Below the pieces are notes generated by a model. That model ran no database searches. It worked only from the letters and a program-made list of their open reading frames with translations, and was not told the origin of the DNA. Positions 23,100 through 31,358 of a stretch of DNA of 64,000 nt are shown piece after piece. The DNA is taken from the NCBI GenBank assembly GCA_964368985.1, contig CAYJDW010000002.1, positions 28,171-92,170 of the forward strand, read 5' to 3'. Each line of letters starts with the position of its first letter. The stretch's first letter is position 1. A program made the position numbers and the translations under genes. The stretch comes from an uncultured Myxococcales bacterium. GTDB taxonomy: Bacteria; Myxococcota; UBA727; JABDBI01.

Positions 23100-23408
23100 G
23101 TGAAATCTATTTTTCATAAAATAAAGCCTCAATTCTACCTTACGCTGGCATTTTTCGTTCTCGCTCATGCGGCCCATTTTCTGATGCCGCAGCAGGTGGC
23201 GCGTGTGCGTAATGAAGAACAACAGCAGGATATTGCTCTGGCTTGTGCTCTTTTAGAGGGGAATTCATTTAAGGATATTTGGATTTGGCTTCTTCTTCTT
23301 TGGGGCATTAAAATTATTTCCAAGAAAAAATCCAGTCAATCGAGCGGTCTGCCAATTTTTGACAGTTATCGCGGACATGAAACGAAAGGTCGTTCATCAA
23401 AGACCTAA
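23100..23408 (+). CDS. Hypothetical small membrane protein (possible GTG start)
   Basis: 102 aa with an N-terminal TM segment. It overlaps the start of the HlyD-like gene. Coding status is uncertain. Confidence 0.25.
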   Translation: MKSIFHKIKPQFYLTLAFFVLAHAAHFLMPQQVARVRNEEQQQDIALACALLEGNSFKDIWIWLLLLWGIKIISKKKSSQSSGLPIFDSYRGHETKGRSSKT

Positions 23409-24225
23409 GCGAGTTGTTGTGGTGCCGAGATTAAAAAATACGAGACACTTTATTTCTGCCTGGGGGGTAGCCGGGGGTTTTAGTCTCGTCTTGGCTTTGT
23501 TTTTGATATTTAGTGCGTGGTATAGCGTGCCTTTGGTGGTGGATGGCTTAGGAATTATATTATTTAAGAGTGGGATCGGTCAGCTGACAAGCCCCATAAA
23601 TGCCACCGTGGAAAAATGGTTCCTTGAGGAAGGTGATGCTTTTTTGCGGGGTGATGCACTGGTGAATCTAAAATCCCATGTGCCACCTTTTTTGAATAAC
23701 GAAATTAAAGCGGCGGAGCCGGCAATAATCGCTGAAATTATTGCCTATCCCGGATCGAGGGTGGAAGCCGGAGATGCTTTAGCGCTTCTTACTGCCAATG
23801 GCGATAAAAGATCAGATTTGGAGTTAACTGGTTTCGTCTCTTCGCTGGAAGGCAAAAAAATAGCGCCAGGCATGCCGGTATTTATCAGCCCTACCATTAT
23901 CGATGAATATAGCCACGGCACTTTGCGGGGGGTGGTGAAAAGAGTGGCGAAATTGCCAGCCTCTAAGGCTTCCCTTAACTCGTTGGTGAAAATTCCAGAA
24001 CTTGCTAAATATATCCGCAACCAAATTGAAGCCGAGCCATTTTTGGTGGTGATTTCTTTGGTGAGTGATGAAAAGCATTTAACGGGCTATATGTGGATCG
24101 GGCCGGGGCCTCGGTTTCAGCTTGATTCGGGTTTGATTGCAAATTTTCAAGTCATTCATGAAGAAAAGTCTTTGCTGAAAATCTCTTGGCCATGGCTGCA
24201 TCGAATGCTCTTCGGAGATCGATGA
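23359..24225 (+). CDS. HlyD-family periplasmic adaptor (membrane fusion protein), short form lacking a long coiled-coil hairpin
   Basis: An N-terminal TM anchor is followed by a lipoyl-like segment (EKWFLEEGDAFLRGDALVNLKS) and a C-terminal beta-barrel segment (IAPGMPVFISP...GTLRGVV). It sits immediately upstream of, and on the same strand as, the C39-ABC exporter. Confidence 0.6.
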   Translation: MTVIADMKRKVVHQRPKRVVVVPRLKNTRHFISAWGVAGGFSLVLALFLIFSAWYSVPLVVDGLGIILFKSGIGQLTSPINATVEKWFLEEGDAFLRGDALVNLKSHVPPFLNNEIKAAEPAIIAEIIAYPGSRVEAGDALALLTANGDKRSDLELTGFVSSLEGKKIAPGMPVFISPTIIDEYSHGTLRGVVKRVAKLPASKASLNSLVKIPELAKYIRNQIEAEPFLVVISLVSDEKHLTGYMWIGPGPRFQLDSGLIANFQVIHEEKSLLKISWPWLHRMLFGDR

Positions 24226-24226
24226 C

Positions 24227-28283: not shown

Positions 28284-28319
28284 CGGATAGAACTCCACAG
28301 GGTCTTTAAAGGAGTTCAT

Positions 28320-31300
28320 GTGACCAAAATAATTCAATCGCAAGCAAATGGGCTTATTAATAAGTGCGAAAATTCACCCACGCAAATGGCATTAGCAAAT
28401 AAACTAGAAAATGAAATAAAAGACCAAAGTTTGTCCTCACTAAAACTGTTTGGCATGCAGCTGAGTGGCCTTGATCTTAAGCAGATAAATCAAGCCCATT
28501 TGTCGGTCAATATTCCCCTAGAGACCGGCCGGAAAAAACTCATGGGAGTGAATAAAAATGCCCGCATTAAAATTCGCAAAAATACGACGGCGGTGGCACA
28601 ACTTGCATTAGGGCGCAATGAAAAAAATCAGCTCTCTTTGAAGAATTTTTCTTTGCGATTTAGTAAAAGTATTGTGATAAAAAATCCGGTCTCGTCCTTA
28701 TTAAGTGAGAGCAAATTTGCGCCACGGAGTTCAGCTATTAAAGATAAATTAGTGGACCTAAAAATCAAAGGCATAAATATTAATGAAGAGGGCCAGGTTT
28801 TTGTTAACGGGCATATTAAGGCATTAAAAATTTTGAATGCGAGTTTACCACAAAAGAAAAGCGCTCTAAAATTACCAGTGTTTGATGAATCATTATTAGT
28901 ACGCTTAGGTCTGGTGCCCGCACGCGATGGCAATGCAAAAAATTTATTATCCGGCTTGGGTGAACAATTTAATGTTAAAACTTTCCTGCAACAGTTAGGA
29001 TCAATCACCAAGGTTGCACCATATTCTTTATCAATTTCGGGTGATCCGACTCTCGTTGCATTTTCCTATGACAATCGAAACTTTCACGGGAAAAATACGC
29101 CCCTCGATTTAAAAATATCCGGCACGGTTGACCTCGAAAGCCAGGGAGATCTGGTGATTGTAGTGGATAAAAAACCGCAATCATTTTCACTCGGAACCTA
29201 TGCAGTAGGTGCACAAATGCGCCTCGAGGCTGCAGCTCAGCCGATTAACCTTAGCGTGGCTGCGGATATATCCGGGGCTTCTGACGGATTATTGATCGAT
29301 GGTTTTAGCCGAGAAAGTGTAAAAAAAGTATTTCCACGACGACAAACTCAGCAAAGGGTTGTGAAGGAAGTCGAGGAGGAAGTTGTAAAAATTCCCTATG
29401 AGATTGGTGCTGAAGAGGTTCTCATAAATGCCCGACTTGAGATGAAAGCATCTTTGAGTCCCGGAAAAAATTCGATCACTGGTGCTATGATTGGGGAGAT
29501 GATTGCTCGAAATCCTTATGCCAAAATTGAAAACAGAGGAGTGAAATTATCAGGTCAAGTTTCAGCTCTTCTTAATTTACAAGAATTTTCTTATCAAGAA
29601 ATTTCAGGTCTCAATGGCACCAAATCATCCTTCAGCCTGGGGCTGAGCCCCGACCAAAAAACTCTCGACCAATTTCCGGGCCTGAAACCTTTGTCGTTGG
29701 AATATGGCTTAAAAATGAGAGCCGATAATAAAGCCACCATAAAAGTACCGGAATTGGGAGCAGTACGCTTTGTCCGTCCCGTTAAAAATATGGAAGGGGA
29801 CCAAAAACTTGTCGACACTATTCATACCCGTGAAAATTTTCATCCAATCGGAAGCGAGAATTATTTCAAACAGCTTAACAAAATCACCGGATCCGAAGTG
29901 CGAGATGCAAGCGAAGTGAAGATTCTTATCGACGGTATTAGCTCGATGCCAGAGCGTTTAGAATTGATGGAGCACGCGAAAGAATATATTTGTTTTCAAA
30001 CCTTTGAATTTAGCGATGATGATTCAGGCTGGCGTTTCGCCAAGGCTTTGGTTGAAGCGCGAGAAAGAGGTGTTAAGGTTTTTGGTATCATTGATTCATT
30101 GGGCAATATTAAATCGTTGAATAGCCTCGAGAAAGAAAATCCGATTTATGAATATCTTAGTACTCATGGGGTCTCGTTAAAAATTTATAATAACGGTTTT
30201 GAAGAGGGAATAAGAAAAATTTTTGCCGTGGCTAAACGCTATCCCACGGTTTTTGCGCAATGCGAAAAGAAACTTCATAATATTTCCGATTTGCTGGACC
30301 ATTTTCAAAAAATCGGCAGCGTGGTTGTCGATCCGAAGTCTCCAATCGAACCTAGAGACCGACTTGAATTGGCCCATGCCATTCACCGTTTATTTGGTGG
30401 AAAAGCAGAGATTTCTCCTCACGATTCAGTAAACGAACTTAACCAAATATTGGCAAATCCCTTGATTGATTTGCGAGAATTGCTTTTGGCTCTGAAACGT
30501 CTAGGTGATATTAGCTACCGGAGCCATGAAAAATACCTCATTGTCGACGGCGTAGAAGCTATCGTTGGGGGTATGAATATTGCTGATGAATATTTGAAAG
30601 GGGGAAGTGGTGAGCAGGTTATGATCGATGGGAATTACCGCACTGCTTTTCGTGACTCGGATGTGAAGCTTAAAGGTGATGTGGTTCGGGATGCTTATCG
30701 GAGTTTTCGACGCAACTGGTTGTTTTTGGCGGCGGAGCGCTTGCCTTTTAGTGCGAAGATTAATCCACAAGCTCAGCACGGCGTGAAAGTAAGCATGCTG
30801 CAGAATCGTCCATGGGAAGATGGTGAACATAAACTGGTGAATTTTCTGCTTTATAATTTGAGAACCCTAAAACGGGGTGAGAAAGCGTGGTTTGAAACTG
30901 CCTATTTTTTGCCAACTGGCGTGTTAAGGCCGCTACAAAAAGAATTAGTGAAAGCCGCTGAACGCGGTGTGGACGTGCGGATTCTGACCAATAGCGAGAA
31001 GAGTACCGATTTTAAGCCTTTAGTAGAGGCAGCGGTTTTTGATTATCGCCAACTGCTTAAAGCGGGCATTCGCCTTTTCGCCCGCACGGATGATCGGATG
31101 GTGCACGCCAAAGTCGCGCTCTTTGGTGAGGAACTAACGACTATCGGTTCCTGCAACTTGGATAATCGGTCGGCAGCTCATGATACCGAAGACATTTGCG
31201 CTATCTATGATCAAAATATAAATCAACAGATGACTTCGCAATTGTTGATCGACATGTTTGAGCAATCAAAGGAAATCCACTTGGCAGATATTAAAGCCTT

Positions 31301-31358
31301 GCCTTTGGGAGCCGAGATAAAAGCCGCCGGCATGCGATTATTGGGCGAACTGCTTTAG
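28320..31358 (+). CDS. Large two-HKD phospholipase D/cardiolipin-synthase-superfamily protein with an uncharacterised roughly 500-aa N-terminal region
   Basis: HKD motif 1 is HEKYLIVDGVEAIVGGMNIADEY. HKD motif 2 is HAKVALFGEELTTIGSCNLDNRS (HxKx4Dx6GSxN). No signal peptide. The 37-bp gap to the upstream ABC gene suggests co-transcription. Confidence 0.75.
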   Translation: MTKIIQSQANGLINKCENSPTQMALANKLENEIKDQSLSSLKLFGMQLSGLDLKQINQAHLSVNIPLETGRKKLMGVNKNARIKIRKNTTAVAQLALGRNEKNQLSLKNFSLRFSKSIVIKNPVSSLLSESKFAPRSSAIKDKLVDLKIKGININEEGQVFVNGHIKALKILNASLPQKKSALKLPVFDESLLVRLGLVPARDGNAKNLLSGLGEQFNVKTFLQQLGSITKVAPYSLSISGDPTLVAFSYDNRNFHGKNTPLDLKISGTVDLESQGDLVIVVDKKPQSFSLGTYAVGAQMRLEAAAQPINLSVAADISGASDGLLIDGFSRESVKKVFPRRQTQQRVVKEVEEEVVKIPYEIGAEEVLINARLEMKASLSPGKNSITGAMIGEMIARNPYAKIENRGVKLSGQVSALLNLQEFSYQEISGLNGTKSSFSLGLSPDQKTLDQFPGLKPLSLEYGLKMRADNKATIKVPELGAVRFVRPVKNMEGDQKLVDTIHTRENFHPIGSENYFKQLNKITGSEVRDASEVKILIDGISSMPERLELMEHAKEYICFQTFEFSDDDSGWRFAKALVEARERGVKVFGIIDSLGNIKSLNSLEKENPIYEYLSTHGVSLKIYNNGFEEGIRKIFAVAKRYPTVFAQCEKKLHNISDLLDHFQKIGSVVVDPKSPIEPRDRLELAHAIHRLFGGKAEISPHDSVNELNQILANPLIDLRELLLALKRLGDISYRSHEKYLIVDGVEAIVGGMNIADEYLKGGSGEQVMIDGNYRTAFRDSDVKLKGDVVRDAYRSFRRNWLFLAAERLPFSAKINPQAQHGVKVSMLQNRPWEDGEHKLVNFLLYNLRTLKRGEKAWFETAYFLPTGVLRPLQKELVKAAERGVDVRILTNSEKSTDFKPLVEAAVFDYRQLLKAGIRLFARTDDRMVHAKVALFGEELTTIGSCNLDNRSAAHDTEDICAIYDQNINQQMTSQLLIDMFEQSKEIHLADIKALPLGAEIKAAGMRLLGELL

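What the first reader, a model, noticed from the sequence alone, without database searches (positions are those of the whole stretch)
23100..31358. Co-directional HlyD-like adaptor + two-subunit C39-peptidase ABC exporter + 1012-aa PLD-domain protein: candidate novel secretion/effector module
Four tightly spaced same-strand genes (gaps 1, 1 and 37 bp) encode three components. The first is a short HlyD-type periplasmic adaptor without the usual long coiled-coil hairpin. The second is a pair of ABC exporter subunits, one with a catalytic C39 double-glycine peptidase domain. The third is a large protein whose C-terminal half is a two-HKD phospholipase D fold. Known peptidase-containing ABC transporters (PCATs) are homodimers that export small GG-leader peptides. 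The combination of a heterodimeric PCAT, an adaptor and a large PLD protein is not a textbook bacteriocin or type I secretion locus. It sits immediately downstream of an AT-rich, probably horizontally acquired, island.
Basis: partly seen in the sequence, partly recalled or inferred. Interest (0 to 1): 0.85.

Follow-up and report, generated by a model that had tools for sequence, protein, structure and literature searches.

The report
Peptide-exporter cassette wired to a phospholipase-D protein
A known three-gene bacteriocin-type export cassette has diverged strongly here and sits, across an uncultured bacterial clade, in front of a 1,012-residue phospholipase-D-like protein with no ordinary secretion signal, so that protein is probably its dedicated partner or cargo, though this is not proven.

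Summary
The adaptor plus two-ABC architecture, however, is not new. It is the NHLM/NHLP three-gene export cassette (TIGR03794/03796/03797, Haft 2010). The window's copy scores far below the family cut-offs, but a syntenic relative (L013) passes all three.

Four things are unusual:
- A ~1,000-aa protein follows the cassette in 10 divergent lineages (PLD identity 27-50%). It has a disordered leader, an all-beta domain with no good structural match, and a two-HKD PLD domain. It was absent from 79 of 80 generic cassettes.
- The adaptor is 244-282 aa and has no alpha-hairpin.
- In this clade one of the two ATP sites has degenerated, while the C39 Cys/His/Asp triad is kept.
- The PLD has no Sec or Tat signal, no Gly-Gly leader and no RTX repeats, and no small Gly-Gly precursor gene lies nearby.

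Best reading (confidence ~0.45): a dedicated, Sec-independent export machine for the PLD-type lipid enzyme.

Caveats: the whole neighbourhood is syntenic, one relative has the cassette without an adjacent PLD, one has ABC genes lacking TM3-6, and two MAGs carry in-frame stops.

The region starts with a separate small membrane-protein ORF (23100-23408), not with the adaptor.

Verdict: new variant of a known kind, interest 0.55.

The parts
23100..23408 (+). Small ORF of 102 aa with a signal-like N-terminus and a conserved C-terminal transmembrane helix plus basic tail (FKDxWxWLLxxWxIKxIxKKK..SGLPIF). Possible accessory membrane subunit. It is not part of the adaptor gene.
   Evidence: The ORF is in a different frame from the adaptor. 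The C-terminal 45 aa are 56-67% identical in L002-4 and L005, always immediately upstream of the adaptor. In L089 a more diverged copy (~44% over 62 aa to the L005 ORF) sits on a 285-aa Cys/Asp-rich repeat protein. Absent from L006, L012 and L013.
23377..24225 (+). Short HlyD-type membrane-fusion adaptor of 282 aa (288 aa from TTG 23359): N-terminal TM helix, uninterrupted lipoyl (barrel-sandwich) domain, beta-barrel domain, no alpha-helical hairpin.
   Evidence: Best family TIGR03794, E 9.7e-31, 107 bits against a cut-off of 156, matching model positions 253-419 only plus the N-terminus. Residues 76-143 align contiguously to lipoyl/biotinyl domains. Eight orthologues of 244-282 aa are 29-58% identical.
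24227..26242 (+). ABC1, 671 aa: catalytic C39 peptidase domain (Cys20, His93, Asp109), a diverged exporter TMD, and an NBD with a degenerate Walker B (LLLLDN), H-loop (TTFRE) and Q-loop but an intact LSGGQ signature.
   Evidence: Peptidase_C39 E 2.4e-25, ABC_tran E 7.7e-16. Best family TIGR03796 at 262 bits against a cut-off of 853. Motif table. Residues 248-644 align to ABCB1. The C39 domain is 53-64% identical to orthologues while the TMD is 24-31%.
26244..28283 (+). ABC2, 679 aa: no recognisable peptidase domain, a diverged TMD, and an NBD with consensus Walker A (GNSGTGKST), Walker B (IIFMDE) and H-loop His but a degenerate signature (LSRAQ).
   Evidence: ABC_tran E 4.5e-23. Best family TIGR03797 at 181 bits against a cut-off of 709, aligned 73-662. 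Motif table. Residues 76-663 align to HlyB. The N-terminal 160 aa match neither the C39 domain nor any PDB chain.
28320..28436 (+). PLD protein residues 1-39: variable, low-confidence N-terminal extension and candidate targeting region. No Sec or Tat signal and no Gly-Gly motif.
   Evidence: pLDDT 38-52 in both models. Length (10-110 aa) and sequence vary across 25 family members.
28440..29744 (+). PLD protein residues 41-475: all-beta domain made of long antiparallel strands in about three sub-blocks, with no confident structural relative.
29847..31358 (+). PLD protein residues 510-1012: two-HKD phospholipase D / transphosphatidylase domain (H736-K738-D743 and H929-K931), followed by the stop codon.
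   Evidence: PLDc_2 E 1.7e-30. Cardiolipin synthase models at E 1e-34, below their cut-offs. Foldseek hits to PLD1/2, PssA and Streptomyces PLD. The catalytic His and Lys residues are invariant or nearly so across 25 sequences.
18794..22506 (.). Genome-specific insertion between miaB and the cassette. It holds an ABC exporter gene (18794-20641, minus strand), an AT-rich orphan 539-aa ORF (20841-22460, plus strand) and a perfect 16-bp inverted repeat (22464-22479 / 22491-22506). It is context, not part of the module.
   Evidence: GC 0.30-0.33. Pfam results. The segment is missing from orthologous loci L002, L005 and L006. Sequence read.

Best explanation
The locus is a lineage-specific derivative of the NHLM/NHLP three-gene peptide-export cassette, recruited as the dedicated Sec-independent export machine for the downstream ~110-kDa protein.

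Proposed working:
- ABC1 and ABC2 form an obligate heterodimer in the inner membrane. It has one catalytic ATP site (ABC2 Walker A/B and H-loop with the ABC1 signature) and one degenerate, probably regulatory, site.
- The cytoplasmic C39 domain of ABC1 docks, and possibly trims, the unstructured N-terminal extension of the PLD protein.
- The protein is threaded out unfolded.
- The adaptor has no hairpin, so it cannot make the usual tip-to-tip contact with a TolC-type duct. Delivery is therefore more likely to the periplasm or outer membrane than straight to the medium.
- There the amphipathic all-beta N-domain would bind a membrane and the two-HKD domain would hydrolyse or transphosphatidylate phospholipids.

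Shown: gene content, motif states, fold of the C-terminal domain, absence of the hairpin, conserved linkage.
Inferred: heterodimer formation, that the PLD is the cargo, docking by C39, and the destination.
For: - Cassette identity. The three proteins each hit TIGR03794, TIGR03796 and TIGR03797 best. The syntenic relative L013 passes all three cut-offs.
- Linkage. The PLD orthologue lies directly downstream, on the same strand, in 10 distinct lineages: window/L001, L002-4, L005/9, L006 (with L010), L011, L012, L013, L089/90, L091, L109. ABC1 identity falls to 24% and PLD identity to 27%. In L013 the downstream neighbour differs (NfeD instead of serS).
- Specificity. None of the 79 other NHLM-type metagenome loci has a PLD within the available flanks.
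- No alternative export route. There is no hydrophobic signal peptide and no Tat motif in any orthologue. The N-terminal 10-110 aa are variable and disordered.
- No alternative cargo. No small Gly-Gly-leader ORF occurs near the cassette in the window, L006, L012 or L013.
- The C39 catalytic Cys/His/Asp are kept in every orthologue, and C39 and the adaptor are the best-conserved parts (49-64% identity).
- The degeneracy is complementary (ABC1 Walker B/H-loop/Q-loop with ABC2 signature). That pattern only makes sense for a heterodimer.
- In L013 an exported lipoprotein of the phospholipase C / acid phosphatase family lies between ABC2 and the PLD. This fits extracytoplasmic phospholipid breakdown.
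Against: - The PLD has no Gly-Gly/Ala/Ser cleavage motif. The only conserved N-terminal motif (G-h-x-h-x-G-h-D, aa 45-52) is not universal and sits in predicted beta-strands of the fold.
- The substrates named for such cassettes in the papers I read are small peptides; a cargo of ~110 kDa carrying an N-terminal signal would, to my knowledge, be without precedent.
- The whole neighbourhood (PTPS, rpsA, miaB, cassette, PLD, serS) is syntenic in most of these genomes. Adjacency alone is therefore weak evidence of coupling.
- L092 has the cassette without an adjacent PLD. L014 has a related PLD without a cassette.
- In L090 both ABC genes are ~505 aa, and alignment shows ABC1 lacks TM3-6; ABC2 was not aligned.
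- L012 ABC1 has lost Walker A.
- L005 PLD and L011 ABC2 carry in-frame stops.
- TMDs are only 20-31% identical between orthologues.
- No TolC-like gene was found among the ~38 window ORFs screened against Pfam (about ten short ORFs of 150-210 aa were not screened).
Confidence: 0.45

Rival explanations
1. The cassette does its ancestral job. It cleaves and exports small Gly-Gly-leader peptides encoded elsewhere in the genome. The PLD gene is a co-transcribed passenger, or supplies an auxiliary function such as self-protection or membrane remodelling.
For: NHLM cassettes are often encoded away from their precursors, and the link was first found by phylogenetic profiling rather than adjacency (PMC2887384). 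The C39 catalytic triad is intact while the PLD has no Gly-Gly site. L092 keeps the cassette without an adjacent PLD.
Against: No precursor-like ORF was found in 64 kb of the window or in the flanks of L006, L012 and L013. The PLD stays immediately downstream through deep divergence and even after a gene insertion in L013. The PLD has no export signal of its own. The transporter TMDs and ATP sites have changed markedly in exactly the PLD-linked clade.
Confidence: 0.2
2. The module handles lipids rather than proteins. The PLD domain, whose best sequence matches are cardiolipin synthases and whose structural matches include phosphatidylserine synthase, makes or remodels a phospholipid at the cytoplasmic face. 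The ABC heterodimer with its short adaptor flips that lipid and passes it outward. The C39 domain would be regulatory or would process a partner.
For: The best sequence families for the C-terminal half are cardiolipin synthases (E 1e-34), and structural matches include PssA. The PLD has no secretion signal. Both ABC proteins align well to lipid and drug exporters such as MsbA, ABCB1 and ABCB4. The all-beta N-domain is amphipathic and basic, as expected of a membrane binder.
Against: All cardiolipin synthase scores are far below cut-off (120 against 290). The strictly conserved catalytic C39 triad has no role in lipid transport. The cassette descends from a bona fide peptide exporter. A 435-residue beta domain is not a feature of known Cls or Pss enzymes.
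Confidence: 0.15
3. The transporter genes are decaying relics in fast-evolving genomes, retained through synteny or polarity, and only the PLD gene (or neither) is still functional.
For: Degenerate ATPase motifs, including loss of Walker A in L012. ABC1 lacking TM3-6, and a similarly short ABC2, in L090. In-frame stops in L005 and L011. TMD identity is only 20-31%. Pfam ABC_membrane is not detected in the window proteins.
Against: Full-length open frames persist in about ten lineages that have diverged to 24-47% identity. The degeneration is complementary and confined to one ATP site, as in functional asymmetric ABC heterodimers. C39 and the adaptor are 49-64% identical with invariant catalytic residues. 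Gene junctions are tight or overlapping (1 nt in the window, overlaps in the called genes of L002 and L090).
Confidence: 0.1

Closest known systems
NHLM/NHLP bacteriocin three-gene export cassette (TIGR03794 HlyD-like, TIGR03796 C39-ABC, TIGR03797 second ABC; Haft et al. 2010)
   Same: Same three components, with each window protein hitting its own model best. The order adaptor, C39-ABC, second ABC is that of the other cassettes sampled here. The catalytic C39 triad is present. The syntenic relative L013 passes all three equivalog cut-offs.
   Different: The window scores are 107/156, 262/853 and 181/709 bits. The adaptor lacks about 140 residues, the alpha-hairpin. One ATP site is degenerate, whereas canonical members and L013 have two consensus sites. 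No NHLP/Nif11 precursor lies nearby. A 1,012-aa PLD protein is fixed downstream instead.
PCAT1 / ComA / CvaB-type peptidase-containing ABC transporters
   Same: An N-terminal C39 domain with Cys-His-Asp fused to an exporter TMD and NBD. The NBD aligns to PCAT1 (4ry2) at E 1.6e-25.
   Different: The characterised PCAT1 contains two identical sets of peptidase, membrane and ATPase domains (abstract of PMC6959990), i.e. a homodimer, and such transporters process Gly-Gly leader peptides. Here the pair is heteromeric and asymmetric, and the only candidate cargo has no Gly-Gly motif and is ten times larger.
HlyB-HlyD-TolC type I secretion of large proteins
   Same: An ABC exporter plus a membrane-fusion protein would move a ~110-kDa protein with no Sec signal. 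ABC2 aligns to HlyB over 76-663.
   Different: HlyB carries an inactive C39-like domain. Its substrates carry C-terminal signals (abstract of PMC4648471) and, from my own knowledge, RTX repeats. HlyD has a long hairpin that engages TolC. Here C39 is catalytic, no RTX or HemolysinCabind domain is detected, the adaptor has no hairpin, and no TolC gene was found among the ~38 window ORFs screened against Pfam (about ten short ORFs of 150-210 aa were not screened).
BesA of Borrelia burgdorferi (hairpin-less periplasmic adaptor, PMC3807786)
   Same: A membrane-fusion-family adaptor that lacks the alpha-hairpin thought to recruit the outer-membrane duct.
   Different: BesA serves an RND drug pump, not an ABC peptide exporter. 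No sequence relationship was tested.
Bacterial two-HKD PLD-superfamily enzymes (ClsB-type cardiolipin synthase, PssA, Streptomyces PLD)
   Same: Two HKD motifs and the PLD fold.
   Different: Below all equivalog cut-offs. It carries a ~110-residue helical insert (aa 625-732) and a 435-residue N-terminal beta domain with no known relative. It has no TM helices and no signal peptide.
Asymmetric heterodimeric ABC exporters with one degenerate ATP site (e.g. TM287/288, TAP1/2)
   Same: Non-consensus Walker B, H-loop and Q-loop in one subunit are paired with a non-consensus signature in the other, leaving one consensus site. TM287/288-type chains appear among the PDB hits (3qf4, 4q4j).
   Different: Resemblance of motif pattern only, with no closer sequence relationship than to other type IV exporters. 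The comparison with these proteins rests on my own knowledge of them.

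Membership tests
NHLM/NHLP three-gene export cassette (TIGR03794/03796/03797) | Three adjacent co-directional genes: a HlyD-like adaptor, an ABC with a C39 peptidase, and an ABC without a peptidase | tested here: met
   ORF map and domain hits.
NHLM/NHLP three-gene export cassette (TIGR03794/03796/03797) | Each protein reaches the curated NCBIfam equivalog cut-off | tested here: not met
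   Window: 107.1/156.2, 261.6/853.3 and 180.6/709.4 bits. The syntenic relative L013 does pass: 175/156.2, 924.1/853.3 and 820.5/709.4. The window copy is therefore a diverged descendant, not a scoring member.
NHLM/NHLP three-gene export cassette (TIGR03794/03796/03797) | Co-occurrence with NHLP or Nif11-type Gly-Gly leader precursor genes | tested here: inconclusive
   None was found in the window or in the flanks of L006, L012 and L013 by motif scan. Precursors can be encoded elsewhere, and the whole genome is not available here.
NHLM/NHLP three-gene export cassette (TIGR03794/03796/03797) | Full-length HlyD-type adaptor (~420 aa) with an alpha-helical hairpin | tested here: not met
   282 aa; model positions ~77-252 are unmatched. 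The lipoyl domain is uninterrupted. All orthologues are 244-282 aa.
Peptidase-containing ABC transporter (PCAT) | N-terminal C39 domain with catalytic Cys, His and Asp | tested here: met
   Cys20, His93 and Asp109 are conserved in all orthologues and in canonical members. Pfam E 2.4e-25.
Peptidase-containing ABC transporter (PCAT) | Homodimer with two equivalent consensus ATP sites | tested here: not met
   Two different subunits with complementary degenerate motifs.
Peptidase-containing ABC transporter (PCAT) | Substrate with an N-terminal double-glycine leader | tested here: not met
   No conserved GG/GA/GS in the PLD N-terminus and no small precursor ORF nearby.
Type I secretion system (HlyB/HlyD/TolC type) | Adaptor with a hairpin plus a TolC-family duct | tested here: not met
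   No hairpin. No OEP/TolC domain among the ~38 window ORFs screened. A duct gene elsewhere in the genome cannot be excluded.
Type I secretion system (HlyB/HlyD/TolC type) | Substrate with RTX repeats or a C-terminal secretion signal | tested here: inconclusive
   No RTX or HemolysinCabind hit. The C-terminus is a conserved helix packed in the fold. C-terminal signals have no reliable sequence test.
PLD superfamily (two-HKD enzymes) | Two HxK(x)4D-type motifs with catalytic His and Lys | tested here: met
   H736/K738/D743 and H929/K931. His736, Lys738 and His929 are invariant, and Lys931 and Asp743 nearly invariant, in 25 sequences. In the second motif the Asp position is Gly936.
PLD superfamily (two-HKD enzymes) | PLD fold | tested here: met
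   AF2 pLDDT mostly 80-97 over aa 510-1012. Foldseek probability 1.00 to PLD1/2, PssA and Streptomyces PLD.
Cardiolipin synthase (TIGR04265 / ClsB NF008427) | Score above the equivalog cut-off | tested here: not met
   119.9/290 and 109.9/281 bits.
Outer-membrane beta-barrel proteins (for the N-domain) | Closed transmembrane barrel that superposes globally on known barrels | tested here: not met

The most novel reading that the evidence does not exclude
A peptide-bacteriocin exporter has been rebuilt into a new kind of Sec-independent protein secretion route. An asymmetric heteromeric C39-ABC pair with a hairpin-less adaptor would recognise an N-terminal, non-Gly-Gly extension. It would export a ~110-kDa membrane-targeting phospholipase D with a previously unseen beta-sheet domain to the envelope or surface of an uncultured lineage whose MAGs are labelled Myxococcota. 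The enzyme could serve as a lipid-attacking or lipid-scavenging effector.
Probability: 0.3. Interest if true: 0.8.

Novelty: new variant of a known kind. Interest (0 to 1): 0.55.

Why it matters
In the papers I read, peptidase-type ABC exporters are described as handling short leader-bearing peptides. If a descendant of that machinery exports a 1,000-residue enzyme, the accepted substrate range and signal type of this transporter class would widen. It would also give a natural case of a homodimer-like exporter evolving into an asymmetric single-site heterodimer, and would reveal how a signal-less phospholipase reaches the envelope.

The N-terminal beta domain has no Pfam family and no good match among solved (PDB) structures; the AlphaFold-database libraries were unavailable. 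It is a target for structure and function work.

If instead the PLD is only a neighbour, the locus is a strongly diverged member of a known cassette and of modest interest.

Tried and rejected
- Word-indexed homologue searches with the PLD protein and with a 25-sequence profile returned only the query. The exhaustive representative search was needed.
- The AFDB Foldseek library was unavailable.
- I tested the idea that the conserved G-x4-G motif at aa 45-52 is a Gly-Gly-type cleavage site. I rejected it because the glycines are not universal and the motif lies in modelled beta-strands.
- I tested whether the ABC2 N-terminus is a degenerate C39-like domain. Nothing was detectable by BLASTP or against PDB sequences, so this is undecided.
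- I asked whether the conserved C-terminus of the upstream small ORF is a general sorting signal. It occurs only once per locus, so this was rejected.
- Promoter and terminator scans were at chance level.
- PADLOC gave only generic domain hits, so the locus is not a known defence system.
- Rfam and tRNA scans of the window found nothing.
- dN/dS was not attempted because the nearest orthologue is only ~46% identical.

Full report
**What is in the sequence**

Between 23100 and 31358 the + strand carries five ORFs, not four:
- a 102-aa ORF (23100-23408)
- a HlyD-like gene in another frame (ATG 23377 or TTG 23359, to 24225)
- ABC1 (24227-26242)
- ABC2 (26244-28283)
- a 1,012-aa ORF (GTG 28320 to 31358) preceded by an AAGGAG ribosome-binding site

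The gaps are 1, 1 and 36 nt.

Pfam finds Peptidase_C39 plus ABC_tran in ABC1, ABC_tran in ABC2, and PLDc_2/PLDc in the C-terminal half of the large protein. It gives only sub-threshold HlyD_3 and Biotin_lipoyl hits for the adaptor.

**The cassette is a known kind**

NCBIfam gives, as the best hit for each of the three transport proteins, the three models of one system:
- TIGR03794 (NHLM HlyD): 107 bits, cut-off 156
- TIGR03796 (peptidase/permease/ATPase subunit): 262 bits, cut-off 853
- TIGR03797 (permease/ATPase subunit): 181 bits, cut-off 709

This is the three-gene ABC transport cluster that Haft et al. 2010 tied to NHLP and Nif11 leader peptides by phylogenetic profiling (PMC2887384). Wang et al. 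2011 describe it again (PMC3140520).

The window proteins score far below the cut-offs. A syntenic, more slowly evolving relative (L013) passes all three, at 175, 924 and 820 bits. The claim that a two-subunit C39 exporter with an adaptor is outside the textbook does not hold.

**What is unusual about this copy**

The adaptor has no hairpin.
- It is 282 aa against a 421-position model and matches only positions 253-419 plus the N-terminal anchor.
- Residues 76-143 align to E2 lipoyl and BCCP biotinyl domains as a single uninterrupted stretch. In membrane-fusion proteins the hairpin is inserted in the middle of that domain (my own knowledge of the family).
- All eight orthologues are 244-282 aa.
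- A hairpin-less adaptor has a precedent in BesA (PMC3807786). Short adaptors also turn up in some generic NHLM-type loci (for example L099, L112, L117). The feature is therefore uncommon but not unique.

One ATP site has degenerated.
- ABC1 has Walker B LLLLDN, H-loop TTFRE and no Q-loop Gln, but keeps LSGGQ.
- ABC2 keeps GNSGTGKST, IIFMDE and the H-loop His, but its signature is LSRAQ.
- In a head-to-tail NBD dimer this makes one dead site and one consensus site.
- The pattern is shared by L002, L005, L006 and L012, with further erosion in L006 and L012.
- It is absent from L013 and from canonical NHLM subunits.

The C39 Cys/His/Asp are invariant. C39 (53-64% identity) and the adaptor (49-58%) are much better conserved than the TMDs (20-31%).

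**The large protein**

An exhaustive HMMER search found about ten full-length representative clusters at 38-48% identity. Some 25 more, of 900-1,130 aa, lie around 30%. Beyond that come generic PLD and cardiolipin synthase proteins.

AF2 with a 25-sequence alignment gave pLDDT 84.7 and pTM 0.78:
- Residues 1-38 are low-confidence helix or coil.
- Residues 41-475 are all-beta with many 12-16-residue strands.
- Residues 510-1012 are a PLD fold.

The C-terminal half matches human PLD1/2 catalytic domains, PssA and Streptomyces PLD (Foldseek E 1e-15 to 1e-12). H736, K738 and H929 are invariant, and K931 and D743 nearly invariant, across the family. It scores best against cardiolipin synthase models but well below their cut-offs.

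The N-domain, modelled alone (pLDDT 74.5), has no Pfam family.
- Foldseek finds nothing (TM 0.08-0.16).
- With 5.3% aromatics, no Trp and net charge +20, it looks like an open amphipathic beta-meander rather than a membrane barrel.

I could not inspect the coordinates, so sheet closure is untested.

**Is the PLD linked to the cassette?**

Yes, within a clade. The order adaptor, ABC1, ABC2, PLD recurs in these loci:
- L002-4: ABC1 46% identical
- L005/L009: 39%
- L006-8 with L010: 33%
- L011, L012, L091, L089/90 and the metagenome locus L109
- L013: PLD 27% identical. Here the downstream neighbour is NfeD rather than serS, and a lipoprotein of the phospholipase C / acid phosphatase family (PF04185) has been inserted between ABC2 and the PLD.

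The NCBI records call these MAGs Myxococcota or Myxococcales. L013 is labelled Methanobacteriota, probably through mis-binning.

Of 80 NHLM-type loci recovered from metagenomes with an ABC1 profile, only the close orthologue L109 has a PLD.

Against a simple reading:
- rpsA, miaB and usually serS are as syntenic as the PLD, so adjacency may partly reflect low rearrangement.
- L092, whose ABC1 falls inside the clade (34-37% identity), is followed by Sod_Cu and UDG genes and has no PLD on its 8.7-kb contig.
- L014 has a related 895-aa PLD next to lgt and dus, without a cassette.

**Is the PLD the cargo?**

The evidence for this is circumstantial.

For:
- It has no Sec or Tat signal. Its N-terminal 10-110 residues are variable and disordered.
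- No small Gly-Gly-leader ORF exists near the cassette in four loci.
- The L013 neighbour is an exported phosphoesterase.

Against:
- There is no Gly-Gly/Ala/Ser motif.
- The conserved G-h-x-h-x-G-h-D at residues 45-52 is replaced by Thr or Ser in several members and forms a modelled beta-hairpin. Canonical C39 cleavage of this protein is therefore not supported.
- No RTX repeats are present.

Signs of erosion also warn against assuming a fully working exporter everywhere:
- L090 ABC1 lacks TM3-6, and its ABC2 is similarly short.
- L012 ABC1 lacks Walker A.
- Single in-frame stops occur in L005 PLD (TAA) and L011 ABC2 (TAG).

**Conclusion**

The most likely account (about 0.45) is a repurposed NHLM-type exporter that works as an asymmetric heterodimer. 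It would move the signal-less PLD-type enzyme across the inner membrane, with C39 acting as receptor and perhaps as a non-canonical processing enzyme. Delivery would be to the envelope, because the adaptor cannot make a standard TolC contact.

Rivals:
- ordinary peptide export with the PLD as a passenger (0.2)
- a lipid-handling module (0.15)
- decay (0.1)

Two searches of the held open-access/bioRxiv library found no paper on a C39-type ABC cassette linked to a PLD protein.

I class the locus as a new variant of a known kind, with interest 0.55.

**Surroundings**

The AT-rich segment upstream is a genome-specific insertion between miaB (17365-18747) and the cassette. It contains:
- an ABC exporter on the minus strand (18794-20641)
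- an orphan 539-aa ORF (20841-22460; GC ~0.31)
- a perfect 16-bp inverted repeat

 Orthologous loci lack it. The rest of the window is ordinary chromosomal housekeeping. It has no tRNA or Rfam hits.

Noticed in passing
window 23100-23408 (+); L002 9023-9184; L005 8870-9208; L089 8406-9263: A small ORF directly upstream of the adaptor, overlapping its start, has a conserved C-terminal TM helix plus basic tail (FKDxWxWLLxxWxIKxIxKKK..SGLPIF) and a variable N-terminal part. The N-terminus is signal-like in the window and L005. In L089 it is a 230-aa Cys/Asp-rich repeat region. The ORF occurs once per locus and only in the closer sub-clade. It may be an accessory subunit or a substrate.
   Followed up: partly
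window 18794-22506: A ~3.7-kb insertion between miaB and the cassette. It holds an extra ABC exporter gene (minus strand, 615 aa), an AT-rich (GC ~0.31) orphan 539-aa ORF with a hydrophobic N-terminus, and a perfect 16-bp inverted repeat (22464-22479 / 22491-22506). Orthologous loci lack all of it.
   Followed up: partly
L090 1321-4357 (also L089 10001-13037): In this relative ABC1 and ABC2 are only 508 and 505 aa. Alignment shows that ABC1 has lost about 160 residues corresponding to TM3-TM6, while C39, the NBD and the 1,024-aa PLD remain.
   Followed up: partly
L005 14368 (TAA) and L011 2935-2937 (TAG): There are single in-frame stop codons in the PLD gene of one MAG and in the ABC2 gene of another. 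They are either real nonsense mutations or assembly errors.
   Followed up: partly
L013 8189-9823 (-): A 544-aa phosphoesterase-family protein (PF04185, the phospholipase C / acid phosphatase family) with a lipoprotein signal (…LILIFSVAC) lies between ABC2 and the PLD gene on the opposite strand. The record is titled Methanobacteriota archaeon, but the locus carries the same miaB / S1-domain / cassette arrangement as the Myxococcota-labelled MAGs, which suggests mis-binning.
   Followed up: partly
L092 1754-8361: A cassette from inside the PLD-linked clade (ABC1 34-37% identical, with the same degenerate motifs) is followed by Cu/Zn superoxide dismutase, UDG and phytase-like genes instead of a PLD. 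A 264-aa Cys-rich ORF lies upstream.
   Followed up: partly
L099, L112, L117, L123, L126, L134, L140, L161 (upstream of the ABC1 match): Several generic NHLM-type cassettes from metagenomes also appear to have short (~270-aa) adaptors that align end to end with the hairpin-less L013 adaptor. The short form is therefore wider than the PLD-linked clade.
   Followed up: no
window 35696-38359 (+); L002 17725-18450 (-): An 887-aa protein with nine DUF4215 cysteine-rich repeats lies 4 kb downstream. A smaller DUF4215 gene sits a few hundred bases downstream of the PLD gene in L002-L004.
   Followed up: no
window 39227-41963 (+): Two tandem SNF-family (sodium:neurotransmitter symporter) genes of 456 and 451 aa, 10 nt apart.
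   Followed up: no
window 5908-11530 (+) and 45211-46758 (-), 56224-57963 (-): Several large ORFs (504, 463, 402, 515 and 579 aa) have no Pfam family. The 8-11 kb stretch also has lower GC (0.38-0.39).
   Followed up: no
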